A stretch of 63,706 bases of DNA, counting the filler, from Conidiobolus incongruus B7586 (lineage: Eukaryota): assembly GCA_000697335.1 (NCBI GenBank). It is 8 parts of 8 records of this genome, joined end to end, with 100 filler letters (N's around TTAATTAATTAA, not from the genome) between each part and the next. Parts side by side here need not be neighbours in the genome. Positions count along the whole stretch, not along the records: positions 17,019 to 22,286 come from JNEM01006058.1; 7 more parts are not named here. One strand, written 5' to 3'. Below, one piece after another: positions 1 to 46,387 of the stretch. Within the stretch, counting starts at the first letter, position 1. Every line of letters starts with the position of its first letter. Made by a program: the position numbers and the translations under genes. The notes below the pieces were generated by a model. The model did no database searches. It had not been told where the DNA came from and saw nothing but the letters and a program-made list of their open reading frames with translations.

Positions 1-16
1 TAAAACCCCCCGGTAT

Positions 17-351
17 TGTCACGAGTCAGGTGACTCTCCTCCCACGTAATATGCTTACTTCAACTGAATATAAGGGTCATTCCCCCCCTCATGTGACCAA
101 CCACTTCAACCCTATCCTTTAATCAGCTAATGATACAACCCTCCAGAAAACTCCAGAAACCTACTACTCTATGCACTATATATAGAACCCAGAAACAGAG
201 CTATACTACAGAGAAGGAGTTTGATCTGGGTCCTCCCAGCTATTTGGCTTAAATCAATAAACCCCCTATCTCCCTAACCTTTACCTGGAAATCCCTAGAT
301 CTCTCTCTTTTGCTTATACTATTCCGGACGCGGCTTTCCCAAGACGTGTTA
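17..351 (+). mobile_element. Solo LTR (family A, copy 1), 335 bp, 4-bp TSD GTAT
   Basis: Starts TGTCACG and ends CGTGTTA (degenerate inverted terminus). GTAT lies at 13-16 and 352-355. Internal TATA-like box (~178) and AATAAA (256-261). Aligns by eye with 41184-41494 and with the reverse complement of 38999-39309. Confidence 0.85.
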
Positions 352-7514: not shown

Positions 7515-7621
7515 GCATCTCGTTTAAACTTAAAAATGTTGTCATTCATTTTTTTATTTTTATCACTTTCTTTATCAATTTGGCAATATCAATAATTTTA
7601 AAATAATATTATAATTGAATA

Positions 7622-11804: not shown

Positions 11805-11887
11805 TTAAAATAGAAATAATATTGGTTTAGCTATCAAACTGGAAGAGATGATTAATTTTGAAATACAACATTATTTCTCCCCCTTTT
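11805..11887 (-). repeat. Polypurine tract (11874-11887) and first 66 bp of the 3' LTR (11805-11870)
   Basis: Minus strand reads AAAAGGGGGAGAAA-TAA-TGTTGTATTTC... just after the integrase. This LTR start differs from family A. Confidence 0.8.
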
Positions 11888-11950
11888 AAACTGATGCAGT
11901 CCTCTATCAGTTATATTCATGTCGCACTATGTTATTCTTACGATATCGTT

Positions 11951-14644
11951 TTAATCGATTTTGATGTATTCCTTCCATAACAATATGCAATTTTCATGAA
12001 CTATATCATATGTAGCATTTGATCTTACTAATAAAACAATATAAGGTCCATCATATTTCTGATGCATTTTCTTTCTTCCTTTTGTATTTAGCAACCTAAC
12101 ATAATTACCAATTTTGTATTTCGGCTTAATAATTTCATCACCTTCTTGTAATTGTAATTCCTTGAACACTCGATTCTCCCTATATTCCCATTGATTAATA
12201 TAGCGTTCTAATTCTGATATAGGTTTGATCCATGTATCATCCAGAATCAAGGTACTCTCCAATAATCGTGGTTCTTGTCCGAATAATATTTCGAAAGGCG
12301 ATATTCGATCCGACTGTGGCGTCACTCGGTATGCAAACAATACTTTATTAATTTCTTGGTCCCAATCCTTTGGATGGTCAATTGATAATTTTTCTAAATG
12401 TTCACATAATGTCCTATTAAATCTCTCTACTCTCCCATTAGCCTGAGGATGGTATGCTGACGTAAATCGATGTTCTACTTGAAGTATCTTGACGAGTTTT
12501 CTCATAATATCACAATTGAATTGAGGACCTCTATCAGTTGTAATGATTTTTGGAAGTCCAAAATTTAAAATAATATGGGTGTAAATAAATTCAGCAACTA
12601 TCTCTGCAGTTTGTGCTTTATATGGTACAGCTATTGGCCAACGAGATTGGTATTCTGTTGCAACCAGTATATATTGATTACCATAAGTTGAAGGTTCAAA
12701 CGGTCCTACAAAGTCCAATGCAATTTGTTTAAATAATTCGTTACTTACTATATGTCTAGAAGGTACTTTTTCTATAGTTTTATCAAACATTTGGCATGTA
12801 TGACACTTAGCGATAATTTCTCGAACTGTCTTATTAATTTTTGGCCACCAAAAATATTTCTGAATTAGACTTAATGTAGCTGTAATACCACAATGAGCTC
12901 CATTTGTATGGAATATTTCGGTTAATTCTTCTCGATATTGTTGTTTTGGGATTATTTGTATCCGTTCTCCTGCTTTTCTAGTTAAGTTATCATTACGAAT
13001 TGAATATCTTTTGCACTGATTCCGAAATTGTAGAAAGGTTTTGTATGATGGAAACTTTGGTGGTTTACCATATTTCAGCGTCCGGTATATCTTTAGTAAA
13101 TAAGGTTCATAATCTATTTCAGTAAAATTTTCAACCATTGCTGCGGTTTCAACCAATTGTCTACTTAATACATCTGCTGGTATGTTATCCTTTCCTGGTT
13201 TATATTCTACTTCAAAATCATAAAACTGTAATTTATATAACCAACGAGCATGTTGATCTATTGGATTTGTTGCCTTGAGGTATTTTTTAAGTGGAGCATG
13301 ATCTGTTTGAATTTTGAAATGTCGTCCAAATAAATAAGGTCTGAAATGTTCTACCGCTAAGACAGCTGCGTACGCTTCTTTATGGACAGTCGCGTAATTC
13401 AACTCAGCTTTATTAAATTTCTTGGAATAATAGCTAATAACTGATTCTTTTTTATCTCCTGGATGTAATTGGGTAAGTACAGCACCTACTCCTAGACCCG
13501 AAGCGTCTGTTTGCAAAACAAATTCAAGATCAAAATTTGGTAGTTTGAGAATAGGAGCAGAGATTAGTGCATTACGAAGTTGATGAAAACTCTTTTTAGC
13601 TTGTTCATTAAAATCAAAAGTATCATTAGTTTTAGTTAACTCAGTTAAGGGTTGAGCTATTTTGGAAAAATCTTTAACAAAGCGTCGGTAATAATTAACA
13701 AAGCCTAAGAATGCTCTCACCTCTTTAGCGTCTTTGAGTTCAGACCAATCTTTGATTCGTTGTATCTTAGAGGGATCAGTTTCTAAACCTTTGTTACTAA
13801 TAATGTATCCTAAATAGTTGATTGAATCATATGCAAAGTAACATTTTTTAGGACTAATACATAATTGATGCTTTTCTAATCGTTCTAATACTTTTTGGAT
13901 ATGAATTAAGTGATCTTCTTTGGTACGACTGTAAATTATGATATCGTCTAAGTAAACTAGAACGAAATCATATAAAAATTCCTTCATTATATTATTCATC
14001 ATGGACTGAAATGTTGCTGGTGCGTTCGATAAACCGAAAGGCATGACTTTAAAAGCGAAATGATTAGTGCGTGAACTAAATCCTGTTAATGGAATTGACT
14101 CTGTATCCATTGGTACTTGCCAATAACCTGAGAATAAATCTAATGTAGTAAAAATAGTAGCCCCATTTAAGGAATCAAGCAATTCATCGATTTTAGGTAA
14201 AGGAAAAGCATTCTTGATAGTAAGATTATTTAATTCTCTATAATCAATACATAATCGTATTTTTCCATCCTTTTTAGGAACTAATATAATTCGGAATGTC
14301 CATGGCGAATCTGACTCTTGAATAATACCGTTATCTAGCATAGATTGTAATTCTTCATCTAGCCATTTCAATTTTGCTTGTGGAAGCCGTCCTATTTTCT
14401 GTTTGATAGGGGTTATGTTTTTATCGATCAACTCGATTCGATGAGTGATTGCTGTTGTTTTCCTTACTTTCTTAAGGTCTGTACATAGTATATTTGGGAA
14501 TTTTGTCAAAAGATTAATAATGGATTCTTTATCAATAAGAGTTCCGATATTAATTAAATCTACTTTGTTATCGATTGGAGGAGCAATTTCAGTTAAAGCA
14601 GCTGACTCAAGTCGTTGAATTGTGGGGTGTTTAAATTTTTTTTT
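11951..14644 (-). CDS. pol: Pol: reverse transcriptase, RNase H, integrase (frame open from 14644; true C-terminus probably continues in another frame to ~11910)
   Basis: RLCIDYRELN, MPFGLSNAPATFQ, YLDD, LQTDASG, H..GAH...C..C, ALDFVGP/TTDRGPQF/GRVERFN, GPY. The shifted frame ends GIHQNRLKRYR. Confidence 0.95.
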   Translation of the reverse strand, partial: KKKFKHPTIQRLESAALTEIAPPIDNKVDLINIGTLIDKESIINLLTKFPNILCTDLKKVRKTTAITHRIELIDKNITPIKQKIGRLPQAKLKWLDEELQSMLDNGIIQESDSPWTFRIILVPKKDGKIRLCIDYRELNNLTIKNAFPLPKIDELLDSLNGATIFTTLDLFSGYWQVPMDTESIPLTGFSSRTNHFAFKVMPFGLSNAPATFQSMMNNIMKEFLYDFVLVYLDDIIIYSRTKEDHLIHIQKVLERLEKHQLCISPKKCYFAYDSINYLGYIISNKGLETDPSKIQRIKDWSELKDAKEVRAFLGFVNYYRRFVKDFSKIAQPLTELTKTNDTFDFNEQAKKSFHQLRNALISAPILKLPNFDLEFVLQTDASGLGVGAVLTQLHPGDKKESVISYYSKKFNKAELNYATVHKEAYAAVLAVEHFRPYLFGRHFKIQTDHAPLKKYLKATNPIDQHARWLYKLQFYDFEVEYKPGKDNIPADVLSRQLVETAAMVENFTEIDYEPYLLKIYRTLKYGKPPKFPSYKTFLQFRNQCKRYSIRNDNLTRKAGERIQIIPKQQYREELTEIFHTNGAHCGITATLSLIQKYFWWPKINKTVREIIAKCHTCQMFDKTIEKVPSRHIVSNELFKQIALDFVGPFEPSTYGNQYILVATEYQSRWPIAVPYKAQTAEIVAEFIYTHIILNFGLPKIITTDRGPQFNCDIMRKLVKILQVEHRFTSAYHPQANGRVERFNRTLCEHLEKLSIDHPKDWDQEINKVLFAYRVTPQSDRISPFEILFGQEPRLLESTLILDDTWIKPISELERYINQWEYRENRVFKELQLQEGDEIIKPKYKIGNYVRLLNTKGRKKMHQKYDGPYIVLLVRSNATYDIVHENCILLWKEYIKID

Positions 14645-16918
14645 CTAAGTGGATTCTTAGTCATTGTTTCTATAGTTTCTTCCTTATCACCTTGTTTTAT
14701 CTTCATCATTTGGAAAGGATAATTGACTGTAGCATATGTTTTATCTAACCAATTACGACCAAGAATAATAGGTAAATTAGGGTTATCCATCACTAAGAAT
14801 TTATCTTTTATAATGATTTCTCCTACTTGGATATCAACGTCTCTTATCTCCCCTGTTGTCTTTGTAGTGGCGCCTACAACTGTCAATCGTATACTAGATG
14901 GAATTACTCGTTCCTGTAAATTCACTGCCTCTACAACCTGACTATGCATTATATTGGATTCGCTACCAGAATCAATGAAGGCTGTAACCTTTATTCCATT
15001 TATGTAACAATAAATTAAAGGGCAACCTCTAGGTTCACCAGACCAAGGAGGAACATAATTTGTAGAGCCTAGACCTTGATCCTGCCTTTCTGTAACTGGG
15101 ATCATGGATAAAGGAATTTCAATAATTTTGGGTTGTTCAAATTTTTCACATATCAATTGTGCAACTTTCTCACCTTCTAAAACTAGATGAGGTTTGTTAG
15201 AATTGTTGATGAGAATTATTTTGATCTCGCCAGTGAAGTTTGGATCAATTACTCCTCCGCCAACATCAAGAGCTCTCTTACTTGCTAGTCCTGATCGTGG
15301 AGCAATTCTTAAATAGGTACCTTCTGGAGGTATAGCCACTAATCCTGTCCTAATTACGGCTCTTGAATGTGCTGGTATTGGGACATCTTCTATTGCTGTG
15401 AGATCCATCCCGGCGTCATTTTTAAAATTGAATCTCGGAATGATTGCTTTTGAATCTTTCTTAGCGAATCGAATTTCTGGTGGTTTACATTCTTCTTGAA
15501 GCGCCATAGCTGCTATTTGTTCAACTCGTTCTTCGGTTATTTCTTGTCGTTGATTCGCTAATTTAAATAAGCCAGTACGAATTCTTGGTGACATTTCCAT
15601 CAATTGTATTAAGGGAATATTATATTTCAAATTCAACATATCTTTAAGGACTTCCGTAGCTTCACCCTCAGTTAGATTTGGCTTCCTTTGTGTTTTCCGT
15701 TTCTTTTGAGTTTTCTTTTTGGCTTCTTTCACTAATTTTTCTGCTTGTAAGTCCAAAAATCTATTATAATCTTCTCGAGATATTGAAATATTTCTCGGAA
15801 TTTCCTTTGCTTGTTCTTCAATTTCTTTATCAATCTCTTTAAGGTCCAATTTATTTGAAGTAACTAATGGTATAGCTTCTGGATTAATTGCAGACATTGA
15901 CTTATTATTTAAGTCGCTAAGAGGAATCAATTGTTGGTTGGTTGTGTTTTGATTCGTAGTTGCTGTTCGTGTCTTTGGAAAATTAATTACACCAGAAGAT
16001 CCATCAGGTTTCTCTAATTGATATGGTTGTTTTTCATTTTTTCTTTTTTCTTTGTTAGTAACTTCTTTCTTAGGTCTAGCCATCATAGCTGGTTCAATCC
16101 GCCCTAGTATTTTGCGCATTTCCTCTAATGTTTCCTGTTCATATTTAGGATCCATTTCGTCTTCGTCGTCAGAATCTGAACCACTAGTGTCATATTCAGA
16201 ACTGTCAGATTCTTCGGGATCTGTCTCATTTCTAACTGAAACCATTGCTGGCATTTGACATTGATCAGGATTAATCTCATCATCATCAACTAAAAATGGT
16301 TCTATCTCTTGGCCATCTACCATATTTAATTGTTGGTCATAACTGTGGTCTACTTGTACCATTGTCGCCTGAGAATCTTTAACCATTGTACAGTCACGAT
16401 ATATATGACCTAGTTGACCACAATTATTACATCCTGGCTTAATACCATTACGTCTGTTGTAATTAGTTGTGTTACTATAATTGTGTCTGGTAACTGTTAC
16501 TTGATTTGTATTACTTTTGTAATTACTCAAGTTGTTCTTTTCTTCAGCATTCAAATCCTTTAAATCTCTTCCTTCAGCAAGCCACGCCCATTTTTGTTCA
16601 GTCAAAATTTTCTCTGCTTTGTAAATTTTCTGCTTTAGTTCTTCTAATGACCAATCTACAATACTTTCATGGAAATGGTTCAGAAATAAACGTATGTCTT
16701 TCTTTAGCCCCTTCAGAATAACCATACGAACATCGATAATATTTAGGTTATCAGGATCTCTAAATCTTGCAACCATTCTATCTACAAAGTCACTCGCAGA
16801 TTCATTCGGGCTCATCTTTAATTCATCTATGTTGGAACTCAGATTTCTCTGGTTGTTGAACCTGAATCGTTTAATAAATTCTTGTTCAAATACTTTCCAT
16901 GTTTCGATTTCCATTACA
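14593..16918 (-). CDS. gag: Gag-dUTPase-aspartic protease polyprotein (5' truncated)
   Basis: Retrotransposon gag-like N-terminus, CNNCGQLGHIYRDC knuckle (~16390-16431), five dUTPase motifs (~15060-15480), protease FIDSGS (~14965) and ILGRNWL. Confidence 0.93.
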
Positions 16919-17019
16919 NNNNNNNNNNNNNNNNNNNNNNNNNNNNNNNNNNNNNNNNNNNNTTAATTAATTAANNNNNNNNNNNNNNNNNNNNNNNNNN
17001 NNNNNNNNNNNNNNNNNNG

Positions 17020-18276
17020 TTACTATTTAGTTTAAGCATGATTAAATTAAACAACCAATTTTAAAAAGTTAATTTTTTAATCAAAAAAACTAATATATAT
17101 ATATATATTAAAAATAAATAAACATTTGAATATATGATATATAAAAATAAATATATAATATAAATTTAATAGTTTCTTTTATTATTAATAACTTTTTACT
17201 ATACTTTTAACAAACTTCTAACACTTAAAAAACAGTTTTTTTTATTAAAGACTAAAATTTAATGTTTTACAAACTAATTAAATTTTCCTGTAAAAATTTT
17301 CTTTCCTGTAAGCTAGTTTTTTAATTGCCTAAAGCAATTATAATCACATAAGTTATAATTAAAAGAATATACTAGATATGGTAGTTTTTTCCAGTTATTT
17401 TTAATTAGAAAGTTTTTTACAGCTTTAGATTTATGTATTTTACAATTATCATGCAAAATAATAGGTTTTCTCAAATTATATTGAGAACACTAATTAAAAA
17501 TACTTTTATTGAAAAAAACAAAATATAGTTTACTATTAATTGATTTTCCTTTAGGAACTAAATAAGAATAGCATATACTATTATAATCTATTATAATAAT
17601 TAACATTTGCTTATTAACAAAATACTTATTTAAAGGGATTTGTGGAGGAAGTTGATTTAACTTAATCTAGCATTTTGATTTGTGTTTTGGTAAAGGATTA
17701 TACATAGGGATTTAAGATTCATCAATTATAATTATTTGCTGTAAAAGTTTAAGCTTCTAGTAATATTTCAATAAGTTTTGTTTAGCAATAGCTACTCTAG
17801 CTTTTTTTAAGTTTTAGTTAAATTATAAGGTACCTATTTTATATTTTTATTTATTAATTTTAGTTTAAACTTTAAAATAGATAAAATACTTATAAAACTA
17901 ATATTAAAGTACTTAGATAATTCTCTAACTAAAATAAAAAGGTGTTTTTCAATATATTTTTTTACTCTATTTACAATTGAAAGAGTAATAGTTAAAGTTA
18001 ATCTTTTAGATTTTAGCAGGTTTTGAATAGTTTCTTTCTTAGCTTTAAAGTAATTTACCTAGCAATAAATTGTTAATTTAGATAATACTTTATTACCAAA
18101 AGCTGCTTGTAAATTTTAAATAATTTTAGAGGGTTTATGGTTAAGTTTTACTAATACTAAAATAAAAAACTTTTGATGATTACTATTTAGTTTAAGCATG
18201 ATTAAATTAAACAACCAATTTTAAAAAGTTAATTTTTTAATCAAAAAAACTAATATATATATATATATTAAAAATA
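17020..18276. repeat. Exact 97-bp direct repeat, 17020-17116 = 18180-18276
   Basis: Identical by eye. Covers the mariner start codon and upstream sequence. Confidence 0.9.
17166..18199 (-). pseudogene. Degenerate mariner (DD34D) transposase
   Basis: Manual translation: ATG at 18199, LQAAFGNKVLSKLTIYC*V..FK (HTH), K*VPYNL (WVPHEL-like), IIIDES*I, ILHDNCKIH-34 aa-CDY including LPYLVYSFNYNLCDY (HPPYSPDLAPSDY-like), C-terminal SLLKV**KVINNKRNY*. Confidence 0.85.
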
Positions 18277-18329
18277 TATAATTTCCTATTAACTTTATAT
18301 ATATTTATTTATTTCAAACTAATAATATG

Positions 18330-21300
18330 TTTGAAAAATCAAAAATTAAAAAATTTCCCATTATTTTAAATTTAAAGTAATAATTATTAAGTTAATATTT
18401 GCTGGATTTTTATAATTTGAATAAAAAAATAAGTATGTAAAATTTTTAACAAAGTATTTACAATATAGTTTTATTAACCTAAAAGATATTAAATAAAGAA
18501 AAAATAAGCTTAAATAGTTTTAATCTATTTAATTTATTTTCTTAATAAATACTTCTGAGTATTTAAGTAAATAAGTGATTTATAATTTATAAGTGTTAAG
18601 AAAAAATTGTAGGATAAGAAATATAAGTGATTTTTGATTATTTCTACTAAAGCAAAAAGTTTTTATTTATAAACTAGATATTTTAATTTAACTGGTTTTA
18701 TTTTTCTTAACCAGAATATTATTAGTTTTAAAGTAATATTTATAAGGTTAAATTTAACTTATTCTCTTTTATTTATTATTTTATCTTATAGTTATAAGGT
18801 AAAGTATAAATTAAATTCAAACTAGGTTAACTATCTACTAATTGTAAAAAAATTAAAGTTAGTAAAAATAATAGTAGGTAGTTTTAAATTAAAGATAGAT
18901 AAAGTAAAAACATTAGTAATATAAAAAATTAAAGTATTTATGTAAAAAGTGTATAGTAGGGTTTATTCAAAAAGAGAGTTTTTTTAAGAGATTAGTAAGA
19001 AAAATAATAAGTTTAATAAAAGAATTAATGAAGTTTTTAAAGTAATTTAATAATTTAAATATAAACATAAGTTAATTTTTGTTTATAAGTATAGTAAAAG
19101 CTTTAACACCATTAAGTTTAGTTAAATCAATATTAATTCCTTAAGAGTAAATAATATAACTATAGAAAAAAACAGAAGAGGTACTAAAGATGTATTTTGA
19201 TAATTTTAAAAGTAATTTATATTTTTGAATAATTTATAAAACTTAATTAACATGTTAAATATATTCTTCTTTAGTTTTTAAATAGATTAGGATATTATTA
19301 AACTATATAATAATAAAATTATTAAAAATAAAGTTGAAAAAGGAATTAATAAATTAAATAAAAGTTATAAAGGTATTATATAATCTAAAGTTTATAATAG
19401 TAAATTTATAGTAACTTAAAAGAATATTGAAAATAGTTAAAGGGATAAAATTTTCTTTAATTCTAATGTTATAATATTTATTTTTAATATCTAATTTAGT
19501 AAATATAGTTGATTTAAGTAGTTTATCCTTAATATTATATAGGTTTAGTAATAAAGTTTTATCTTTAATAGTTTTAGAGTTTAAAACAAAATTATCAATA
19601 TATAGTTTTTAACCACCATCAGCTTTTTTTACAAAGAGGATTAAAAATTTTTATAGTAAAGAAAAAGGTTTAATATATTTATTAATAAATAGTTTTTAGA
19701 TTTTTTCTTTTAAAGTTTAATATTATTTAAAAGATAAATAGTAAGTAAATTTTAAATATAATTGTGTATTAAAGAGTAGTTTAATTTTATACTTAATATT
19801 GTGTTTAAAAGGTAATTTATTTATAGATTTAAAAACATTAACAAATTAACTTATTATATTATATAAGAAGTAGTTATTAAATATAACTTTATTGAAATCA
19901 ACAAATAAAGTATTAATAGATAAATAATAAACAAATATATATCTTTATAAATTATTAAGGTTTTTAATTAGTTTTTTATATTGGTTTTTACTTATAATAA
20001 TAGAATTATTTGCCACAATTATAGAGTTAGTGTTAGATAAAGTATTTAATAGTTTTATAGTAGGGTAATGTAGGTTTTTTAAGATTAATTCTACTAATTT
20101 CTTTTAGAATGTAAAAAAAATAGATTTGTAACTTTTTAGGGTAATATTCATAGATATAAAACTATGATATTTAAACTAATTTTAACCTAGTATAAAATTA
20201 TAACTAATGTTACCAACTAAGAATTTAATATATTAGGAATAATTAGGGGGTAATAATAGGTATTTAAATATAGTATTAAATGCTTGTTCTATTAAGTTGT
20301 TAGTATATTTAATTATCAAGTTACTTTTTTAGGTAGGTAAAGATAGCTTTATAACAATAAAAGAAGAGATAATATAACTAAAATAACTAGAATTAATTAA
20401 AACACTAACAAGTGTGTTTATAAAAAAATTAATTAACACAAACAATAGTATGATAGTTAAAGGTAAAAAATCACAAGGTAAATTAATTACTAGAATATTT
20501 CTAGTTTCTAATAGTTTAATTAGTTAGATTTCTCTAGTATATATAATTTAATTTATAGAATCAATAGTTTATTAGAACTTTTGTGGATTAGATTAGAATC
20601 TACTAACTAATTATAAAAAAGGTGATTCTAAAGTTATATTAATATTATTCAAGTTTGATTTATAGTTGGTAAGTTAAAATTATTGAAAATTTAACAGATG
20701 TTGCTTTTTTAAAGGGTATTTATTAACTCTATAGTTAACTTAAGTTTTTTAACAGTAATAACAACCTTTGTTTATTCTTAAGTAGGTTTTAGCTTCTTCA
20801 CTAAAGGTTTTCTCATAAAGTTTTAATGTAATAACATCTATCATTTAAAACTTAAATGAGTTAAAGTAAAGTTTAAAAGATTAATTTTTAAGGTGGGAAA
20901 ATTTAATTATAAAGTAAAAGATATTATCAATTATAATTGCTACATCATAAATATTAGAAAAAAACATATTATTAAAGTGTTTCTTACTAACTAACTAGAG
21001 CTTTATTTAAAAGTTAAGATATTGTAATAGTTTGTAGATTTATTCTTCTTCAATAATATTTAATATGTTTAAACATATCTCATTAAATTTCTCAATTAAT
21101 TAACTTATAAAAGTTTTTTATTTAAGTTAAAAAAGCTTTTCTCTTATTAATTAAACTTAATCTTTTAAGTAATACCTTTCTTTAAGAGCTTTTTCTAATT
21201 GTTTAAAAGTTTATATTTTTGTAGTAAATTATCCTCTTGAAGATTCTTTAGGATTAAACTTGTAATAAGTTAATTACTAAATATAAATAGATTTTTCTAA

Positions 21301-21900
21301 AAAAAAATAGTTAATTTAAAGATATTTTTTAAATCATCTAAGATTAAATTAAGATAATTCTTTATATTTTTAAAGTAGTTTTCAAGTGTGTAGAAGTTTT
21401 TAAAACTATTATAAGTAGTTAATTTGTCTTTAAAGATATTAAAAAGGTAGTTTAATATATTAATTATAATGAAGTAACTAGTTTGTTAGATTTAAACTCT
21501 TTAAGACATTTTTTTTTCAATCAGAAGTTGTTTAATATATGTTTTTTAAAGGGTAATAAGTTTTTAAAAACTAAAGTTTTAGATTTATTTAGTAATTAAG
21601 CTGTTATTATTATTAAAATAATATAAGGATATTTTTTTTAATGGTATTATAATATATAGTGTTAAATTTAAATGAAATAAATTATAGATAAGATTTAAAA
21701 TAGCAATAATTAAGTTTAATACAAATAGTTATTAATTTCTAATAAGTTTTTAATAATTTTATTACTGCTACTATTTAATTATAAAGGTAGTTAAACTAAT
21801 ATAGTATAGAGGAAAACTTAATATAAAAGTAGTGTGGTATAAAATATAATAATATAATGTAGCTATAGTGTGTAAATGTAAATAAAGTTTAATTAAGCTT
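18330..21900 (-). mobile_element. Heavily mutated Ty3/gypsy relic (gag, RT, RNase H); boundaries approximate
   Basis: Manual translation: GCYYC*KT*VNYRVNKYP (Gag knuckle, ~20750); LILFVKKADGG*KLYIDNFVLNSKTIKD...IFTKLDIKNKYYNIRI (~19450-19640); FNNILIY (YxDD, ~19290); IIFTNFNFFTISR*LT* (TDAS-like, ~18850). Confidence 0.85.
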
Positions 21901-22386
21901 TAAACTAGGATGAGTCACTAATATATTAAGATTTATATTAGGTAGTGTTAATATCCTATAATATTAACAGAATATAATCTCAATTTTAGAAATAGTATAA
22001 AAGTAAAAAATAGTAAAAATTGAGAGGAAAAAGAAAAACCTAGTTTATTAGATAATTCAATGCTATTTATACAATTAATTTAACTATATAAGTATAAATT
22101 AATCATATAATTTATAGTTAATTGGATTATATAAAAGTATATATAAGAATTTAAAGAATTAGTCTTTTAACAAAAAGAATGATTTAAGTATAATTATAAA
22201 TAATATAGAAATTTAAGTTAATATTAATTATATAATAAAATATATATAAAAGTTTTATTATTTATATATTTTTAATTTATAAACCCNNNNNNNNNNNNNN
22301 NNNNNNNNNNNNNNNNNNNNNNNNNNNNNNTTAATTAATTAANNNNNNNNNNNNNNNNNNNNNNNNNNNNNNNNNNNNNNNNNNNN

Positions 22387-35046: not shown

Positions 35047-37169
35047 ATGGTTCAAAACAATAATGATAGAAAACTAATCCTCCTGTCAAAAGGACTACTT
35101 TTCAACAACACAAAGAAGAAATAGAAGCTAAAAAGAGGGTAAATACTCACAACTTAAGAAAATTTAACTTTATATTAAATTAAAATAATAGAGAGAAGAG
35201 GCAGAAACTGCTCAAGTTTATGCTGATTTTATTGCCGATTTTGGAGAGGGAGATGATCAAAATACACAATCGAGTACTCTTCAAGTTAAAACTTTTGTCA
35301 AATCATCTTCGTCCAAACCACATTCAAGTAAAAATAATGAAACAGCGAAAATACATATGATCATATTAACTTAATATCAACTATTGTAACTATCGTTTTA
35401 GATGTTACTCAAAATCCATACATTCAATCTGAAGTATATCAACCTAAAATGCTTGATGCAATTGGAGCTAAAAATTATACTTCACAAAGTGGACACAGTT
35501 CAGGAGTTCAAGTGAATCAACCTGTACCAACAGTAAGTTAATATTTCAACTCAAGAATATTGCGGTCTTATCGAAAACGACTGAATTCATAATTCAGCAG
35601 GGAACCAAGAAAAAGAAAAATTTAGATAGCTTTCTAGAAGAGTTAAAAAGGTATAAAATTAGGCATATTTAAAATGCTCATGCAACTAACTTAAATACTA
35701 GAGAGCAACAGGAAAGAGAACTTCGAACTAAACTTCAGCAACACATATCAAATATTCAAATTCCAAATGCTTCAACTAATCGTCAAGCAAAAACATTCTC
35801 AGATACACCACCTGATTCTAATTCTACAAACCTTTTCGTGGGAAATATATCGCCTCAGGTTAATGAAATACTTTTGATGCAAACATTTGGGAAATTTGGC
35901 CCTATAGCTAGTGTGAAAATAATGTGGCCCCGAACCCCAGAAGAAAGTGATCGTCGCCATAACTCTGGCTTTGTTTGCTTTATGAAAAGAGAGCATGCAA
36001 TTAATGCATTATCTGCCTTGGATGGCTCAGATTTAATGGGACTTAATTTGAGAATCGGTTGGGGCAAATCTGTACAGCTCCCATCAATTCCAATTTATGA
36101 TCCTAATCAACCCAAAAAGCATATATCAACAAATCTACCATTTAACGCAGTTTCAACTCCAGATAAAAAAGCGCAAGTTCAAATCATTATTCCATCAGAT
36201 ACCCGTCAATTGAAAATTATCCATCAGACAATTGAAAAAGTTTTGACTTTAGGTGCGCCTTTTGAGCTGCTTTTAATAGAGAGAAAGTCATCTGATCCAA
36301 ACTTCTCTTTTTTGACAGATTATACCACACCTCACCATATATACTATAGGTGGAAAATGTTTTCTTTGCTTCAGGGTGACTCTGTAGATGAATGGCGAAT
36401 CCAACCTTTCCAGATGTATGAAAATGGCCCAGAGTTTTTACCGCCTCCAATTCCCATTCCCGAACCATCAATTGATGAATTATCAGATTTAGACTCAGAA
36501 GGAAACGAATTTCCTGGAACTTCTAAGGGCCAACTTTTGCCTCGAAAATCTAAAATATTCCACAAAATGATTAATGAGCTCACCCTCAACAGAGACAGTA
36601 TTGGAAATGTTATGGTATTCTTAGTTGATCATGCCGATGCAGCCGATGAGACTGCTTCTGCACTTTGTGATTTACTAATTTCTGAAAAAACGGATAATAA
36701 TCATAAACTGGCTTTATTGTATCTGATATCAGACACATTACATAATATTTCTCTCGAAGTATCTGGTTCTTGGAAATTAAGATCCAAATTTGAAACACTA
36801 TTGCCCATAATATTTATTCATTTCCACTCTGTTTACCGAGGTATTCAAGCTTTGGGTCGTTTAAAGGCCGAGACTTTTAGAAAACGAGTCATGATGATAT
36901 TTCCTGGATGGGAACGAATGGCATTTTTCCCACAACCATTTTTAGATCATCTTGCCAATTTATTCCAACATGGGGAAAATTATGAACAAGTTTTGATTTC
37001 GAATCAACCATCTCAAGTGGCAGGACCTGTTCAGCAGAATGACTCTACTACATCTCCCAATGAAGACATTGATGGTGTACCTTTAGTCAGCAGTGATAAT
37101 GAAGAAGTTGACGGTGTTCCTCTCCAGGATGATGATGTTGATGGTGTTGCTTATTACTCTGATGATTAA
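35047..37169 (+). CDS. U2SURP: U2 snRNP-associated SURP-motif protein (SR140): RRM, SURP and CID domains, several 5' introns
   Basis: TFQQHKEEIEAKKR, KKNLDSFLEELK, TNLFVGNI...GPIASVKIMWPR...GFVCFM, HIYYRWKMFSLLQGD, LYLISDTLHN, EDIDGVPL. Exon 1 needs +1 A at 35070-35073. Confidence 0.9.
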
Positions 37170-37709
37170 TATACATTATAAATGGTTAATTATTGGAAAT
37201 TTGGTATATTTATATTGAGCATATCATTAAATTCAATACTCATAATCATTATCATATTCAAATACATATTATTAATTCTCTGTATACAGTATTAATTCCA
37301 AAATATTTACTTCATTAAAAATTTTTCAAAATTAACTTCAATTTACATAGGATTTTTTTATTTAAATTTTAATTATTATCAAAACAAGTTTAATATACCA
37401 TTTGTCAAATGTATTAAATCAAAAATTTGAGAATTTTTTCTTGATTTATTTATTTAAAAAGAAATGGCAAATTTTTTGATTTCTGATTTTTCAACTATAT
37501 TATTAGTTTACAAAAATAAATTATATATATTTTATATATTTATATATATATATATATATATTGAATTATTAATNNNNNNNNNNNNNNNNNNNNNNNNNNN
37601 NNNNNNNNNNNNNNNNNTTAATTAATTAANNNNNNNNNNNNNNNNNNNNNNNNNNNNNNNNNNNNNNNNNNNNATATTTATATTAATTATATTAATTATA
37701 TTAATTATA

Positions 37710-38406
37710 TTTAAAAGTAAAATACTAAATTAATTATTATTTAGGGACATATATTACCTTTAAGTAAAAAATATGTTTGTTAAATTAATAAGGGAATATA
37801 TATTAAGATAAATTAAAGTATTTTAAATAATAAGTTAAAAAAAAAACTATTTAATCATATAAGTTCAATATATTTAATATTATTTTCTAATAAAATAATA
37901 ACTTTTATTATATTATACATTTTAATACCTAATAGTTTAATAATAATAGAATAAAATTTATAAAATAATTTATTTAATTTTTTAACCTTAATTTAATTTT
38001 ATATTTTTAGGATTAATAAAAAAAATTATTAAAACTTTTTTTTTAATAAAAAATTTAACTTAGCTTTAAAAATATCTTTAAGAAGTATAAAACAAGAGTA
38101 AACTTTTTTAATATAAAAAGTTAATTAATTTTATACTTTATATATATAAACAAATTTAAAAAATTAAAGATAGATATATTAAGTTTAAATTTTTTTTATT
38201 ATCAAAAACCTATTAATTTATAACTTAAGTTTAAAAAAATATTTTATCTAATTAATGATTAAATATTAATATTTAATGACTTATATTATTAATAATTATA
38301 TATAAATTAAATTATTAAATTTAGGTTTATTTTATTAAGTATTGATTAAGGTATCAGTAAAAATATAGATGTTTTTGATTTTATAACTTATTTTTATAGG
38401 TTAGTA
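37710..38406 (+). mobile_element. Tc1-like DNA transposon relic, 3' half with right terminal inverted repeat
   Basis: Colinear with 45870-46387. The reverse complement of 38340-38406 matches 44995-45060. Followed by TA. Confidence 0.75.
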
Positions 38407-38998
38407 TACTTAAATTTTATTATTTAATTTGAAATTTATTTGAAATGGAAAAATAAAATAAAAAAATCTATCCAACTCATTTGTATACCATATTTGATAT
38501 TATATTGCAAATTGCTGGAAAGTACCTTTATAATATAGATCAAGTAGATTAGATAAAACAGGCTGAAATTAACCAAAGACACACTTTAAATGGTTTTATA
38601 AAAATATTAATTTATAAGGATTAGACCTGATCAAAGTGATGTCAGAGCAAAAATATACTTAGTAGTGATTTTATAATATTACCAGTTCTTTCAATAATAT
38701 GTTAAATCACTTATTATAGTTGTTCTTCCAGTTTGACATTATATAAGGATTCTGAATGTTACTAGTTTATGAATTATATTGGAAATGATGAGAGATCAAG
38801 TCAAATGACGAGCAGACCTCCCAATTGGTGAAATTAAAGCAATATAAACATATCTCATGAATTATATCTTGATATAAAATTATTATTAGGATTCATAAAG
38901 AAATGTAATTTTAATAATAGTGTTTATTATATAAATTAAAAAGAGCACTTCATAGTGTATATACTGATAGATCTTTCAAGGCATCAGATTTAATATAT

Positions 38999-39309
38999 TA
39001 ATATAACTTGGGAAAGTTGTGTTTGGATTAGATAGGTAAATGAGAGAGATCTAGGGAGATAAGGGTTTATTGGTTTTAAACAAATAGCTGGGAGTACCCA
39101 GATCGAACTCGTCTCTTGAAAATAGTCCTAATTCAGAGTTTTATTTAGAGTGAATTAGGTAAAGTAGTTTATGAGATTCACCAATGACTTGCATCATCAG
39201 CCAATTAAAAGATAGAGCTGAAGCAGCTGATATGAGAGGGAAGAAATGACTTTTATATTAGGTCAGTGTATGCAAATTTGATATGAGATGAGTCACCTGA
39301 CTCGTAATA
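38999..39309 (-). mobile_element. Solo LTR (family A, copy 2), 311 bp, TSD ATAT
   Basis: Reverse complement aligns to 41184-41494. ATAT at 38995-38998 and 39310-39313. Confidence 0.82.
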
Positions 39310-39630
39310 ATATCAAATATATAATCAATTAATAAATAAATAAATATAATATATATAAATCCTGTTTTTGAATTTCCATATCCTACTTCGAAAATTGAAA
39401 AGTTGAGGTATATTATTAACTTAAAGATATTAGTATATCAAGTGTTGTTCTGTTTATAGTCACATGAATAATCCCAAAATATTTTAATTATAAATTAACA
39501 ATATATAACAAATATGAGAAATGGGATTAAAATTATAATTGAATCAAATTGGTACTTGAAAAAAATTTCTCTTTCTAATATAAATTAAAATAAATTCCAA
39601 GATATAATAAACAGTTCTAAATTATTCACT

Positions 39631-41164
39631 ATGCCACGATTCCCCAATTATAACGAGTATACTCAATATGAGAACCGACTGCTACAATCACGTAATTTTC
39701 AGCTCCAGGAAAAGTTATTCACTAATTTTTTAGTTCGACTGCTGCGCCAGTACCCCAAGTTATGGATTCATATTACCGATATAGAGAGAATTATAGCAAA
39801 AATTCCAAAATTTAGAGATTGGCAAGATGTTGATTTGATGAAATTTTTTCATGACAAACGCTATCCTGAGCATTTCGCCTTTGGATTCATGGATAGTGGA
39901 AATAGTAAGAGCGATTTTGTAGTACAGTTGTTACAGCCTAGTTCTTTTGATTTTGAGGTAAAAACTATGGATTTTAATCATTATATAAAATTTGGAAAAT
40001 TAGATAATATTTGGCAGGTAAATTATTATTTATGAATAATAAATTAATTCAACTAACAAATTAGATTGGCAGACATTTAAATTAAACAATACAGATTATA
40101 TTAGAGCAGAATATGTCAAAAATATAATTCAAGATGTAATTGATCGATCATTTAACAATTATTGCACACTAGAGAGCCATGGAAGCATTCCAATCAGATT
40201 GGGCACGTATGATAGTGATATTGATCTTTTGGTAAGGTTTCATAAAGAAATAAGCATACCCAAGATGGAAAAATTCTTCGCAACGATTAAACCCATTTTA
40301 ACCAATAACGGATTCGAATTCTTGGCAAATTGGAAGAGCGTCATAGGTACTCCTATCATGAAGCTATATCATTACCAATCTGAGTTTAGTATTGATATTG
40401 GTGTTTGGTGTCCCATACTAAGATCGAAAACCAATCTGATAAATGCTTATTGTAAATTAGATCTTGAGATTAGGAAGGCTGTTCAACTGATCAAAATTTG
40501 GGCAAATCGCAGACAACTGGATAACCCCGGTAAAACCCAAGTAGTTAGTTCTTATTGTCATGTCATCATGTTTATTACTTATCTTATAATCATTGAAGCG
40601 GTGCCCAATCTCAGAACCATACATCCTCGAGTCAAATTCTGGTATGGTGATACTATTAATTACAAGCCCATCATTTTTCCCGAAACAAGTGCTGATACCG
40701 ACAACCAGTTGAGTGAGTTTTGCACTATAACACAGGCTGGACACGAGATTTTCCTCCCAGTTTACTTCCACAATCGGTTAACCTTCCAAATAAGTCAAAA
40801 TTGGGATATTCAAAGGGTCATTAAGAGCTACTTCTACTTCATGGGTTTTGTATTTGACTACCGTAATTGGGAGTTGAGCTTATATCATGGTAACGTCATT
40901 AGATCACCTTCATCCATTGATCAAATTGACAATAATACCAAACTGTTGCGCGTCCATCATCCTTTCAACCCCAGTCAGATAGAATCCAAAGCTGCAAAAC
41001 CATGGTGTGTTGATGGGCTTAAGTGGGAATTTATGCGAGGTTTTCACCTACTCCATCGTGGTGACATCAACGAACTATTCCATGAAGCTACACCTCCAAC
41101 CGTTGAGGAAGCAGTGAAATATAATATGTACGCTCACGTAAGACGATGGGAGCATTATTCATAA
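39631..41164 (+). CDS. Cid1/TUTase-family non-canonical RNA nucleotidyltransferase (exons 39631-40017, 40073-41164)
   Basis: HGSIPIRLGTYDSDIDL (hGS...DxD), SIDIG (third Asp), LIKIWANRRQL, SSYCHVIMFITYL, PAP-associated region FYFMGFVFDY...VHHPF. Confidence 0.85.
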
Positions 41165-41183
41165 CAATTTCTTATAAAACTAT

Positions 41184-41494
41184 TGTAACGAGTCAGTTGA
41201 CTCTATTCGACCTAATTATACTTACCTCAACCTAATGTTAAAGTCATTTCCTCCCTCTCATATCAGCTGCTTCAGCTCTATCTTTTAATTGGCCGATGGT
41301 GCAAGTCATTGGAGAATCGCTCAAATCATCTTACCCAATCCACTCTATATTAAACCCTGAATTAGGTCTATTTTCGAGAGACGAGTTCGATCTGGGTACT
41401 CCCAGCTATTTATCTTAAACCAATAAACCCTATATCCATAGATCTCTCCCATTTACCTAAACTAATCTAGATATGGTTTTCCGAAGACATGATA
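41184..41494 (+). mobile_element. Solo LTR (family A, copy 3), 311 bp, TSD CTAT
   Basis: TGTAACG...CATGATA. CTAT at 41180-41183 and 41495-41498. AATAAA at 41422-41427. Confidence 0.87.
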
Positions 41495-43758
41495 CTATCA
41501 ATCAAAAAATTTTTTAAACTGATCTTAATGTAAATCTTTGATGAAAATAATATTACTTAAGTGTAAATTTTACAAATTTTTTTATCAATCATAATATGCA
41601 AATTGTACAAATTAATGTTTGAAAAAAAACAATATTAACAATTGATATATTTCCATTCCAATATTTTTCAAAATTTATTAAAACTGAACTATTGTGCTAA
41701 GAGACTAAAGCTCTAAGTTCTTGATACATATCGTCTGATATGTTTATTATTCAACATCTTTGGATTAACTATGATCAATATCACCTAAATCCTGTTTTAG
41801 TAAAATCAATTGCCTAAATGATTACAAATAGAGTAATAAACATGCTTCCACTTCTTCCTGTCTTATAATTAACTAATTGATTGGTTAATTCTCTTAGTTA
41901 ATATCTAATTCATTAATTATTGACTATTCCTATCAATTGCTAATTATATTTGGTACTATTTACTATCTTGAACCATCTGTAATCATTTGTTGAATTTAAC
42001 TTACAGTTAATTGGAATTAAAATTACTTTCTATTTTAAGATCTCCCTTTGCACTATAACTATCCCTTGTTTGAAGGACTATTAACTTTTATTACTTACAC
42101 ATTGTATTTTTTTTGACTACTGGTGATCAAACTGAGAACATATGGTCATTCTTGTTTTTCCAATATTTCAATATTTTAAATTCAATTAAAGATGATTATA
42201 AATAGAATTAAAATAATATCGAATACTCCTATTATAGTGTGAAATATAACTTAAATAAATTATAAATATTAATTAATTCATTGTATTGACTAATATATAG
42301 TTAAGATTAATAACTATAAGTTCAATCAATTCAATTTCAACTCAAGTTTAGTATTGTATTGTATCTATAAACTAATATATATTTCAGAAAATAATAAAAT
42401 TATAATTAGTTTAAAGTGATATTAAGAGAAAGAAATAAGGTTCGAAAAATATATTTCATAACTTTATTTAGTAAATATAAAGCATAAAACTTTCATATAT
42501 TAGTCTGTTAGGAAATATAGCATAAGAAATTACTAATATGAGTAAAAGTCAAGTTATAACATAAATTGATTATAAGGCTATGTGACTTCAATTAAATCAA
42601 TTCCTTTTGTTGAAACTGATCATTTATCTCATAAAATAATTATATAATCCTTAAATTATGAATGTATAATACCAATTTTATATTCTTGAGTAATTGATTA
42701 AGATGGTTTAGTAATAAAATAAACACCAATATCTTCACAATAACTATTGAACTCAAATTGTAACGATAATTAAGATTATAAACTTGATTCATTTGCTCTG
42801 TTTTTTTTTCTTGAAAGGCAACAATAACGCAAAATTACTGCTCAATAGTATTGAGTATAAATAAAAATTTAATAGTGAATTTATGTTATATTTTAGAATA
42901 GAATAATATTAAATTCTAGGATTTGTAATTATTATGTTTTTGAAAGGTAATTATTCTTTATCTTCTAATCAATGTCAATAAGCTTAAAACTTATTGTTTT
43001 CATTAATAAACGGAAACATCTTTTAGTCGATTATAATTGTATCGACACCAATATTGATAATAGCGATAATAGAATTGAATTAAAAAGATTGTGTGTGGAT
43101 TTTTTAATTAATTTAAGATATAGTTGTAATAGAGTTGTGATCATAAAAAAAGTTATATTCTTGATTTTATTATAATGAAGAATATATGTTATTTGAGCCA
43201 AATTAATAACTTAGCTATTGTCATAGTTCTTAATATTAAGATTTTTTTTTGGATTTTTGTCAAGATGATATTACAAATCAAAAATTTGATATTAATCAAT
43301 AATTTATAATGATGATGTCATATCTATTGAATATAGCCCTAATTCAAAAATCAGCCATATAAAAATAATATATAGAGGGTTGATTATATTTCATATCAGC
43401 TTAAAATTAATATCTTAATTGACTTAAATAATTAATTGATTATATATAGAACAAATATATAAAGAAATCATGAAATTTTAAAAACATGACAAATTCATAC
43501 TAAGTGGGACAAGGTCTAAGTCTAGCCATAAAAAGATTTAAATTAAACGCAACAACTGGAAAAATTCAGAGAAACTTCTATTAATCTTCCCTATTTTTGA
43601 CAAACACAATACTTATACTCTATTCAATACTGAACTCTTTAATATTCAGTCTTATTCGAATCCTGAAAATGTTTCAATTGGCTCTTTGATATTATATTCG
43701 ATTATGAATACGAATTTATGAACTCTAGAATGGATAATTGGGTAGCTAATATTATTTA

Positions 43759-44497: not shown

Positions 44498-44994
44498 ATT
44501 CTTTTTAACTATTGAGTAATATTGATAATTCATCTTTATTTTTGATAATACCATATTATTAAAAGAATGGGAAATTGTTAAATTTCAGATTTTTCAATCA
44601 TATAACATTTTTGTAAAAATAATATATAAAAAATAAAAAATATATATATAGTTTTAGTCTATTTATATTAAAATAGATTATTTTTTATTTTAAGTCATAT
44701 TTTAAATAATTATTAATAAAATGATCTATATTTAATTTTAATTATAATTAAGAGTATTTTTTGATTTCAAGAATTTATAACTTAACTATAAAGTATATAA
44801 AGCTATTTTAAACTTAAAAACTATTTTTAAAGATTATGTTTTATTTAAAACAACTATTTATTAAACAATATCAAAAAAATAGGAAATTTTTTAATTTCTA
44901 ACTTTTCAAGCTTATTATTAATTTTATTTAAAAATATATATAAAGTAAATAAGAAAATATATAGTTTTGAGTTATATATATATATATATATATA

Positions 44995-46387
44995 TATTAA
45001 CCTACAAATTAAGTCATAAAATCAAAAATATATATATTTTATTTAATAACTAAAACAATTGTATATATTAGATTATTTAAAATTATAATATATAATTAAA
45101 GTATATTATTTGATAATAAATAAATATATTTAGGTATATTTAATAAACTATTAGCAAAAATATTAACCTTTAATATTTAATTGAAATAAATTATAAATTT
45201 GCAAGTATTTAAGATAAAGGGATATATTTAACAATATATAACCATATCTTTTTTCTCTCCTTGTTATTATTTATTATAATATTTTATAGATATATTAAAT
45301 TTTTCTATTAGTATTATAATATTTAAATCCCTCTCTAAAAAGATTTACTTGTATATTAATTAACTATATAAAAAAATAAATCAACTTATAATATTATTAA
45401 AATTACTAGTGTTAGCTAGTCTATTATAATTAAAGTTATTAAGAATAACAATAAAAACACACTTAAACTTAAACTTAAGGATGATAAAATCATAAATAAA
45501 TATAATAAAAAATATATCTATAGGTTAATTAATATAGGTAATTATAATATTATTATAGAAATATAGCAACAACTATAATGCTATATAAGAATATTAGTTA
45601 GCACTAATACTATTATATATACTTTATATTAACATAGATATTACTTATATCTTAAGAAAAAATACCTTTAATTAAAGAAATCCCATTATAAAACTAGATG
45701 GGAGTTTAAATATTGTTTTTAATATTAAACTAAAAATAATTAAAGTAAAGTCATTTAATTTAATAAAAAAAAAAATGTATTTTAGTAAATTAAATAAAAA
45801 AGTTAAATATTTTAAAATAAATATAAATCTATTTTATAACTATAGTATTAATTTTATCTAAAAATATAATGATAAGTTAATTATTATTTGGAGATATATG
45901 TTATCTTTAGGTGTAAAGTATTTTTATAAATTTAATAAGGGAATTAATATTGAAATATATTAAAATATTCTAAATAATAAATTAAAAAAAACTATTGAAT
46001 AATATAGGTTAAATAAATCTATTGTTATTTTTTAGCAATATAATATATTTTATTATATTATAGCTTTTATTATTAAATAGCTTAAAAATAACAAGATAAT
46101 AATTATAAAATAGCTTTTTTGATTTTTTAATCTTAATTAAATATTTTTAAGATTAGTTAAAAAAAGGTATTAAAGTTTTCCCCCTAATAAAAAATTTAGA
46201 TTAATTTTAAAAATATGTTTAAGAAGTATAGAATAAGATTAACTCTATTTAATATAAGAAGTTAATTGATTCTATATCTTATAAACTTAAAGAAGTTAAA
46301 AAAGCTAATAATAGATACACTAGGTTTTAATTTTTCTTATCACCAAAAACCTACAAATTTATAACTTATTTTAAATAAAATTTAAAA
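44995..46387 (+). mobile_element. Tc1-like (DD34E-type) transposon relic with left TIR; transposase ~45240-46330
   Basis: Manual translation KYNDKLIIIWRYM (KHGGGSIMIWGCM-like), VIF*QYN (FQQDN), *LF*FFNLN*I (WPSQSPDLNPI), LIDSISYKL..VKKANNRYTRF*. Inserted next to a TA run. Confidence 0.8.

What the first reader, a model, noticed from the sequence alone, without database searches (positions are those of the whole stretch)
17019..22286. RIP-like C>T/G>A hypermutation of transposons in an apparently non-Dikarya fungus
Seen: the ORF-less AT-rich contig is readable as transposon protein in which conserved residues change by transitions on both strands: W>stop (TGG>TAA/TAG), D>N (YxDD>FNN), P>L/F, C>Y, H>Y, G>K/S/N, R>K. 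Reading frames are largely preserved and I could spot essentially no CpG. The Tc1 relics show the same pattern, while host genes and the dUTPase element are spared. Known: this is the signature of repeat-induced point mutation, characterised in Ascomycota with RIP-like cases in Basidiomycota. Inference: a repeat-targeted mutator, or intense 5mC deamination, possibly with broader context than CpA.
Basis: partly seen in the sequence, partly recalled or inferred. Interest (0 to 1): 0.8.

Follow-up and report, generated by a model that had tools for sequence, protein, structure and literature searches.

The report
Transposon-only C-to-T hypermutation in Conidiobolus-like fungus
Dead transposons in this Conidiobolus-like fungus have had about half of their cytosines turned into thymine, every CG first and then CA and CT, while neighbouring genes are untouched, which likely reflects a methylation-linked genome defence in a fungal group that a recent kingdom-wide screen scored as having none.

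Summary
Confirmed. Contig 17019-22286 holds a dead Ty3 retrotransposon and a mariner relic, with 0 CpG (36 expected) and CpA at 0.64 of expectation (intergenic 1.18). At conserved reverse-transcriptase positions, 50 of 84 C/G bases show C>T or G>A, on both strands, while 100 of 113 A/T bases are unchanged. An intact Ty3 in the window gives 8 of 83 and 99 of 111. General AT drift is therefore rejected.

Two probable Tc1 relics show the same scar on a contig whose gene matches only Conidiobolus paralogues and unnamed sequences, and the scar ends near a transposon end. The focal contig shares a short repeat with three host-gene contigs. Contamination is unlikely.

Fitted context order is CpG > CpA > CpT >> CpC, unlike CpA-first canonical RIP. 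Best reading: a methyltransferase-coupled mutator aimed at long repeats. It works like RIP; membership is unproven, since no enzyme, methylome or life stage could be tested.

Prior print: index-only RIP claims in Entomophthorales (2024) versus 'no_rip' for 8 of 8 Zoopagomycota (2025). The evidence is one window.

The parts
18985..21384 (-). Ty3/Gypsy gag-protease-reverse transcriptase relic, 800 codons read in one frame with 48 stops (42 TAA, 4 TAG, 2 TGA) and no Trp codon left
   Evidence: RVT_1, weak Retrotrans_gag, tblastn single HSP 20169-18979, composition
18414..18986 (-). RNase H relic of the same element after one frameshift; no integrase match seen downstream
   Evidence: RT_RNaseH E 2.5e-4; tblastn 18758-18414
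21385..22286 (-). Upstream stretch with the same signature; probable gag start, leader or LTR, not assigned
   Evidence: 21400-22286: 0 CpG, CpA o/e 0.59; mutated state
18272..18371 (.). Short unclassified repeat next to a (TA)n run, shared with three host-gene contigs (near 37452, 44556, 44873, 59808)
   Evidence: alignment scores 59-104 against null maxima 38-42; blastn
17110..18255 (-). Mariner transposase relic between two (TA)n runs; catalytic part 17786-17301; ends approximate, N-terminal part read by eye only
   Evidence: Mos1 E 2.6e-12; Transposase_1 and DDE_3 weak; N-terminal part had no meaningful hit
17020..17121 (+). 102-bp 99% identical copy of 18180-18281 at the contig edge (collapsed tandem copy or assembly overlap)
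37674..38413 (+). Probable Tc1 relic A with the same signature; the mutated state ends at 38426, near the end of its terminal inverted repeat
44990..46387 (+). Probable Tc1 relic B with the same signature (mutated state begins at 44613 and includes a copy of the short repeat)
   Evidence: HTH_Tnp_Tc3_2 weak, E 0.06; 78% identical to relic A
11805..16918 (-). Control: intact dUTPase-bearing Ty3 element, not hypermutated
   Evidence: Pfam; 108 CpG; RT C/G transitions 8 of 83
39026..41500 (.). Control: two ~300-bp LTR-like repeats (39026-39312, 41181-41500; third copy at 14-345) flanking a nucleotidyltransferase gene; largely spared
35673..37166 (+). Taxonomic anchor: U2 snRNP SURP gene, 70% to Conidiobolus coronatus; other named fungi in the top ranks about 37-44%

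Best explanation
Long transposon copies in this Conidiobolus-like fungus carry dense C-to-T changes on both strands, complete at CpG, heavy at CpA and less at CpT, and these likely come from a cytosine methyltransferase that marks such repeats and whose marked cytosines are converted to thymine far faster than background. Shown: the spectrum, its restriction to transposon relics, both strands, the lineage. Estimated from a rough model: the order CpG > CpA > CpT >> CpC. Inferred: (1) a DIM-2/DNMT1-family enzyme is recruited to long or heterochromatic repeats; (2) methylated or enzyme-bound cytosines are deaminated and fixed as T, at about ten times the background rate even outside CpG; (3) C runs erode from the 3' end because CpC resists until its neighbour has changed; (4) short repeats of about 300 bp and a young or low-copy element escape. 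The effect is RIP-like inactivation. The life stage is unknown; a vegetative Dim2-type mutator is slightly favoured over premeiotic RID-type RIP.
For: Spectrum: relic RT C/G sites 50 transitions, 10 transversions, 24 kept of 84; A/T sites 100 kept of 113. Intact control: 8, 7, 68 of 83; 99 of 111. By my arithmetic this is about 0.8 excess transitions per C/G site against at most about 0.09 excess changes per A/T site. Copy test: Tc1 pair 67 transitions to 22 conserved C/G (75%), LTR-like pair 25 to 90 (22%), p 1e-14, with similar A<>T divergence (7% vs 9%, p 0.39). Context: fitted rates CpG 3-10, CpA 0.8-2.0, CpT 0.45-1.0, CpC 0.05-0.2 in all three relic sets and under both ancestor proxies; flat (0.3-0.8) in intergenic DNA. 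Conserved CC doublets became CT 6 times, TT 10 times, TC never (p 0.03). Targeting: a Markov model trained on the Ty3 part of the focal contig labels the focal contig, both Tc1 regions and one 394-bp contig end, and no host ORF. Precedent: Dim2-dependent mitotic C>T in repeats of Zymoseptoria (PMC8016269, passages). A review says Dim-2 occurs in early-diverging fungi (PMC7862722, passages); RID/Masc1 is documented solely in Pezizomycotina per PMC5751038 (passages).
Against: No methyltransferase gene or methylation data was seen for this organism; no whole genome is held. In Zymoseptoria the Dim2 mutator spares CpG, whereas CpG is the first target here. A review passage calls 5mC scarce in Zoopagomycota (PMC11258239), and C. 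coronatus is scored no_rip. The ancestor is unknown: polarity rests on distant homologues (about 30% identity) and on an unrelated intact element as control. The context fit uses proxy compositions and a coarse grid. The RNase H alignment was partly misplaced (9 of 27 changed columns explained), so the nucleotide counts use RT only. A 5-kb intact Ty3 is spared and a 99% identical 102-bp duplicate persists, so the process is incomplete, slow or extinct. The Ty3 coding strand keeps 315 C but 176 G, which is unexplained.
Confidence: 0.58

Rival explanations
1. True RIP or an independently evolved equivalent: duplicated DNA is recognised by homology around zygospore formation, and a RID-like enzyme mutates both copies in bursts, here with a CpG > CpA preference.
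For: Density, both strands, preserved frames, little change at A/T sites. Sharp edge near a transposon end. Short repeats spared, in line with RIP's length threshold (recalled). Entomophthoraceae encode methyltransferases that group with RID at 12-14% identity, which the authors decline to call homologues (PMC11105155, passages). Tuber shows CpG plus CpA bias with RID and Dim2 (PMC4352252, passages).
Against: The CpG-first order is not the canonical CpA preference. That orthogroup was listed for three Entomophthoraceae species only. A long intact Ty3 and a near-identical duplicate remain. Nothing here tests timing or homology dependence.
Confidence: 0.27
2. Passive deamination of methylated CpG plus long general AT-biased drift in dead elements.
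For: CpG loss is total. The genome is AT-rich (intergenic GC 21%) and CpG is mildly low everywhere (o/e 0.6-0.8). The Tc1 pair shows 7% A<>T divergence, so some neutral decay.
Against: Obligatory CpA and CpC sites are hit too (6 of 11 and 10 of 21 transitions). A/T sites are as intact as in a living element. A CpG-plus-uniform model fits worse than separate contexts by about 6-31 rough log units per set. Intergenic DNA has CpA o/e 1.18.
Confidence: 0.07
3. An AID/APOBEC-like cytidine deaminase attacks transposon DNA or cDNA.
For: TpC is low (o/e 0.73 vs 1.14), a 5' pyrimidine effect of 1.2-1.9 appears in most fits, and the Ty3 coding strand is G-poor.
Against: DNA transposons without a cDNA stage are hit equally. 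Conserved C and G on the coding strand are kept at the same rate (10 of 35, 14 of 49). The dominant determinant is the 3' base, whereas such deaminases read the 5' base (recalled). No deaminase was looked for.
Confidence: 0.05
4. The AT-rich contigs come from a contaminating ascomycete, or are a sequencing artefact.
For: The focal contig carries no host gene of its own, and reads could not be inspected.
Against: The same signature flanks a gene whose 6 homologues are 3 C. coronatus paralogues and 3 unnamed sequences. The focal contig shares a repeat with three host-gene contigs. Both C>T and G>A occur on one strand with context dependence and clean edges.
Confidence: 0.03

Closest known systems
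Repeat-induced point mutation (RIP) of Neurospora crassa and other Pezizomycotina
   Same: Dense C:G>T:A confined to repeats, both strands, frames kept, CpA depleted and TpA enriched (composite index 0.76 in the focal contig, -0.65 intergenic), short repeats spared.
   Different: CpG is the strongest target here; host is Zoopagomycota; RID, premeiotic timing and homology trigger untested.
Dim2-dependent mitotic C>T mutator of Zymoseptoria tritici (PMC8016269)
   Same: Repeat-restricted C>T tied to a methyltransferase, more than tenfold rate increase, includes CpA, needs no meiosis.
   Different: There >98% of C>T changes are at CpA and CpG is spared; here CpG is erased and CpT is also hit.
CpG plus CpA transposon bias of Tuber melanosporum; CpG/TpCpG bias of Pucciniomycotina (PMC4352252, PMC3318451)
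   Same: CpG-first context with CpA second matches Tuber.
   Different: Those are Dikarya; Pucciniomycotina lack the CpA/CpT component seen here.
Index-based RIP signal in Entomophthorales, Zoophthora radicans 24.2% (PMC11105155)
   Same: Same order of fungi, same kind of claim.
   Different: Giant-genome species and dinucleotide indices only, in the passages read; no site-level spectrum, context order or internal control.

Membership tests
RIP (canonical) | Large excess of C:G>T:A transitions over other changes | tested here: met
   50 transitions and 10 transversions at 84 C/G sites; 100 of 113 A/T sites kept; Tc1 pair
RIP (canonical) | Confined to repeated DNA, genes spared | tested here: met
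   segmentation; host ORFs keep 445 CpG, CpA o/e 1.14; one window only
RIP (canonical) | Both strands affected | tested here: met
   C>T 21 of 35, G>A 29 of 49 on the coding strand
RIP (canonical) | CpA is the preferred target | tested here: not met
   CpG ranks first (0 left; fitted 3-10 vs CpA 0.8-2.0). CpA is first among non-CpG contexts, so two layered processes are possible.
RIP (canonical) | Length and identity threshold of the repeat | tested here: inconclusive
   ~300-bp LTR-like repeats and short isolated copies spared, but also a 5-kb intact Ty3 of unknown copy number
RIP (canonical) | Depends on a RID/Masc1 methyltransferase | not testable with these tools
   no genome held
RIP (canonical) | Occurs premeiotically, triggered by homology pairing | not testable with these tools
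   needs crosses
Dim2-type mitotic mutator | Intact Dim2 and 5mC on transposons | not testable with these tools
   no genome or methylome
Dim2-type mitotic mutator | Mutates CpA but spares CpG (Zymoseptoria) | tested here: not met
   0 CpG of 36 expected vs passage
Passive 5mCpG decay | Excess limited to CpG | tested here: not met
   non-CpG sites heavily hit
Ty3/Gypsy LTR retrotransposon (relic) | gag-protease-RT-RNase H order, with integrase and LTRs | tested here: inconclusive
   RT and RNase H matched, gag weak, protease by tblastn HSP; integrase and LTRs not found
Entomophthoromycotina host (non-Dikarya) | Host genes closest to Conidiobolus | tested here: met
   2 of 2 genes searched; best-hit evidence, no tree built

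The most novel reading that the evidence does not exclude
Entomophthoromycotina possess an active, homology-triggered repeat mutator with its own CpG > CpA > CpT code, run by a methyltransferase outside the RID clade. RIP-type defence would then either predate the Dikarya or have evolved independently in zygomycete fungi, and k-mer screens miss it in AT-rich genomes.
Probability: 0.27. Interest if true: 0.85.

Novelty: new variant of a known kind. Interest (0 to 1): 0.62.

Why it matters
Whether RIP-like defence exists outside Dikarya is open and disputed. One paper inferred it from indices in Entomophthorales. A 1,239-genome screen scored all 8 Zoopagomycota in its table, C. coronatus included, as no_rip. 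This window gives site-level evidence with internal controls and a specific context order in a relative of C. coronatus, whose sequenced relatives have compact genomes (33-44 Mb). That makes the question testable by methylome, enzyme inventory and mutation-accumulation lines. It may also bear on why Conidiobolus genomes stayed small while Entomophthoraceae swelled to 0.5-1 Gb (inference).

Tried and rejected
No whole genome is held, so copy numbers, further copies and methyltransferase genes could not be searched. No sequencing-read evidence was obtained, so coverage and copy variants remain open. The metagenome scan returned 2 loci at 25% identity, not Conidiobolus-like, and they were not used. 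The search for intact relatives of the mariner relic found none among 136 candidates. The 150 best RT relatives are distant (about 30%); the ten looked up are algal, plant and amphibian elements, so no close ancestor was available. Raw transition:transversion ratios of copy pairs are uninformative in such AT-rich DNA (Tc1 pair 1.25, LTR-like pair 1.23) and were replaced by a per-C/G measure. The short-repeat pairs and the Tc1 inverted-repeat pair were too short or too divergent for spectra. The RNase H columns were partly misaligned and left out of the nucleotide counts. The first rate fit stalled at its start values and was redone by grid. Bewick et al. 2019 could not be read. In the supplements of PMC12543289, files 13-19 were not searched and three tables are too large to read, so Rid1/Dim2 presence in Conidiobolus there is unseen. 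The supplements of PMC5751038 and PMC11105155 gave no RID counts or RIP values. OcculterCut's main text does not mention these fungi. Searches listed no paper giving a site-level spectrum for Conidiobolus transposons; only top listings were seen and subscription papers are not covered. Rejected: AT drift, CpG-only decay, cDNA editing, contamination.
Full report
Setting. The window is eight contigs joined by N-linkers; no whole genome is held. The host is a relative of Conidiobolus coronatus (Entomophthoromycotina, Zoopagomycota). The SURP gene at 35673-37166 is 70% identical to C. coronatus and about 37-44% to the other named fungi in the top ranks. The nucleotidyltransferase at 40043-41161 has six homologues at E<=1e-10: three C. 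coronatus paralogues and three unnamed sequences. This is best-hit evidence from two genes; no tree was built.

Anatomy. The focal contig 17019-22286 has GC 16.6% and no stop-free frame above 84 codons. On the minus strand it reads as a Ty3 element: gag (weak Pfam), protease and RT in the same frame from 21384 to 18985 (one tblastn HSP spans 20169-18979), then RNase H after one frameshift. No integrase was found. Next come a short repeat (18272-18371), a (TA)n run, and a mariner relic whose catalytic part matches Mos1 (E 2.6e-12). The first 102 bases duplicate 18180-18281 at 99%. Compensating frameshifts between gag and protease cannot be excluded.

Composition. The contig has 0 CpG where 36.3 are expected; CpA o/e is 0.64 and TpC 0.73. 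Equally AT-rich intergenic DNA (17 kb, GC 21%) has CpG 0.62, CpA 1.18 and TpC 1.14; the composite RIP index is +0.76 against -0.65. Host ORFs keep 445 CpG and the intact dUTPase-bearing Ty3 keeps 108. In the 800 relic codons Trp is 0%, Gln 1.1%, Pro 1.6%, Arg 1.5%, against 1.1, 4.7, 5.3 and 5.1% in the intact element; stops are 6%.

Polarised spectrum. I aligned the relic RT to 140 of the 150 library relatives. Of 113 columns conserved in at least 80%, 65 are changed, and 42 of these are reachable by C>T/G>A alone (null mean 12.1, max 25); the intact control has 7 of 30. At bases fixed by the genetic code the relic shows 50 transitions, 10 transversions and 24 kept of 84 C/G sites, but 100 kept of 113 A/T sites. 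The control shows 8, 7 and 68 of 83, and 99 of 111. The element thus lost about half its C/G while its A/T sites stayed as close to the family as those of a living element. By my arithmetic this is about 0.8 excess transitions per C/G site against at most about 0.09 per A/T site. The control is a different Ty3 lineage, so this is approximate. C and G on the coding strand were kept equally (10 of 35, 14 of 49). The RNase H alignment was partly misplaced and is excluded from these counts.

Copy test. Two probable Tc1 relics (37674-38413, 44990-46387; weak Pfam E 0.06; 78% identical) differ by a transition at 67 columns against 22 conserved C/G (75%). A spared pair of ~300-bp LTR-like repeats on the same contig gives 25 against 90 (22%; p 1e-14), with similar A<>T divergence (7% vs 9%, p 0.39). 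Raw transition:transversion ratios (1.25 and 1.23) do not separate them, because few C/G remain.

Targeting. A three-state Markov segmentation, trained on the Ty3 part of the focal contig, marks as mutated the whole focal contig, 37674-38426, 44613-46387 and 61187-61580, and no host ORF. The edge at 38426 lies near the end of the Tc1 inverted repeat (38238-38408 matches 45164-44993). Short isolated copies of the shared repeat at contig ends lack CpG (only 2-3 expected) but are not CpA-depleted. The focal contig shares that repeat with four places on three host-gene contigs (scores 59-104, null maxima 38-42). With this makes contamination unlikely.

Context. Fitting C>T rates to random strings drawn from two ancestor proxies gives CpG 3-10, CpA 0.8-2.0, CpT 0.45-1.0 and CpC 0.05-0.2 in the Ty3, mariner and Tc1 relics, and a flat 0.3-0.8 in intergenic DNA. 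The CpG value is only a lower bound and the model is rough. Independently, conserved CC doublets became CT 6 times and TT 10 times but never TC (p 0.03), so the 5' C changes only after its neighbour. A weaker 5' pyrimidine effect appears in most fits.

Mechanism. An order set by the 3' base, CpG > CpA > CpT >> CpC, is what C5 cytosine methyltransferases tend to show (recalled). DNA transposons and both strands are hit, which argues against cDNA editing. Non-CpG sites changed about ten times faster than background, which passive decay of partly methylated sites would struggle to give (inference). I therefore favour a methyltransferase-coupled mutator on long repeats (0.58) over premeiotic RID-type RIP or an equivalent (0.27); these two are not exclusive, and a CpA mutator layered on CpG decay would look the same. 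Precedent for a mitotic route is Dim2 in Zymoseptoria, though it spares CpG (PMC8016269, passages). RID/Masc1 is reported only from Pezizomycotina (PMC5751038, passages), while Dim-2 is said to exist in early-diverging fungi (PMC7862722, passages). Against: 5mC is called scarce in Zoopagomycota (PMC11258239, passages); an intact 5-kb Ty3 and a 99% duplicate persist; the Ty3 relic's C-over-G excess (315 vs 176) is unexplained; no enzyme was seen.

Prior art. PMC11105155 (passages) reports index-based RIP in 24.2% of Zoophthora radicans and 2-6% of relatives, with stated caveats. PMC12543289 (abstract, sections 8, 9, 11, supplement files 1 and 12) finds RIP-like signatures almost only in ascomycetes and lists 8 of 8 Zoopagomycota, including C. 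coronatus, as no_rip; it used only scaffolds above 50 kb. PMC4352252 (passages) gives CpG plus CpA for Tuber; PMC3318451 (passages) gives TpCpG for Pucciniomycotina. PMC12387763, PMC13297926 and PMC4943192 were seen as passages or searched without relevant hits. My searches listed no site-level study for Conidiobolus. Unchecked notes of this scan describe CpG plus CpA scars in a Dimargaritales fungus and in Jimgerdemannia; these are leads, not support.

Verdict. It works like RIP, does not meet RIP's CpA-first criterion, and cannot be filed as RIP until enzyme and timing are known. It is a new variant of a known kind, in a lineage where the literature disagrees; the evidence is about 7.5 kb of relics in one window. 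Interest 0.62.

Noticed in passing
window 11805-16918 (-): Intact Ty3 element with a dUTPase domain between the gag zinc knuckle and the protease, gag-pro and pol in different frames. dUTPase domains are enriched among E. muscae retroelement domains. It is the one long element here that is spared.
   Followed up: partly
window 14-345, 39026-39312, 41181-41500: Family of ~300-bp LTR-like repeats; two copies in inverted orientation bracket the nucleotidyltransferase gene. They keep CpG (18, o/e 0.49) with CpA o/e 0.84, at most a mild touch of the mutator.
   Followed up: partly
window 39589-41164 (+): Poly(A)/TUTase-like nucleotidyltransferase of a small Conidiobolus-type paralogue family, 45-49% identity; possibly tied to RNA silencing (speculation).
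   Followed up: partly
window 17020-17121 and 18180-18281: 99% identical direct repeat at the contig edge inside hypermutated DNA: a collapsed tandem mariner, a duplication after mutation, or an assembly overlap.
   Followed up: no
window 18272-18371, 37452-37562, 44556-44650, 44873-44987, 59808-59935: Unclassified AT-rich short repeat, in most copies next to a (TA)n run, often at contig ends or beside transposon relics.
   Followed up: partly
window 22387-25901 (+): Large protein of about 70-residue repeats in two overlapping frames, with no Pfam match for the first frame; function unknown.
   Followed up: no
window 18420-21384 (-): Coding strand of the Ty3 relic keeps 315 C but only 176 G, although conserved RT sites lost C and G equally; unexplained.
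   Followed up: partly
window 61187-61580: Very AT-rich, CpG-free contig end called 'mutated' by the segmentation but not CpA-depleted and without recognisable coding relic.
   Followed up: no
window 7619-9232 (+), 26947-30390 (-), 51819-55415 (-): SNAPc subunit 3 gene, a long protein with a Cation_ATPase_C hit, and a multi-HAMP histidine kinase whose internal repeats are not hypermutated.
   Followed up: no
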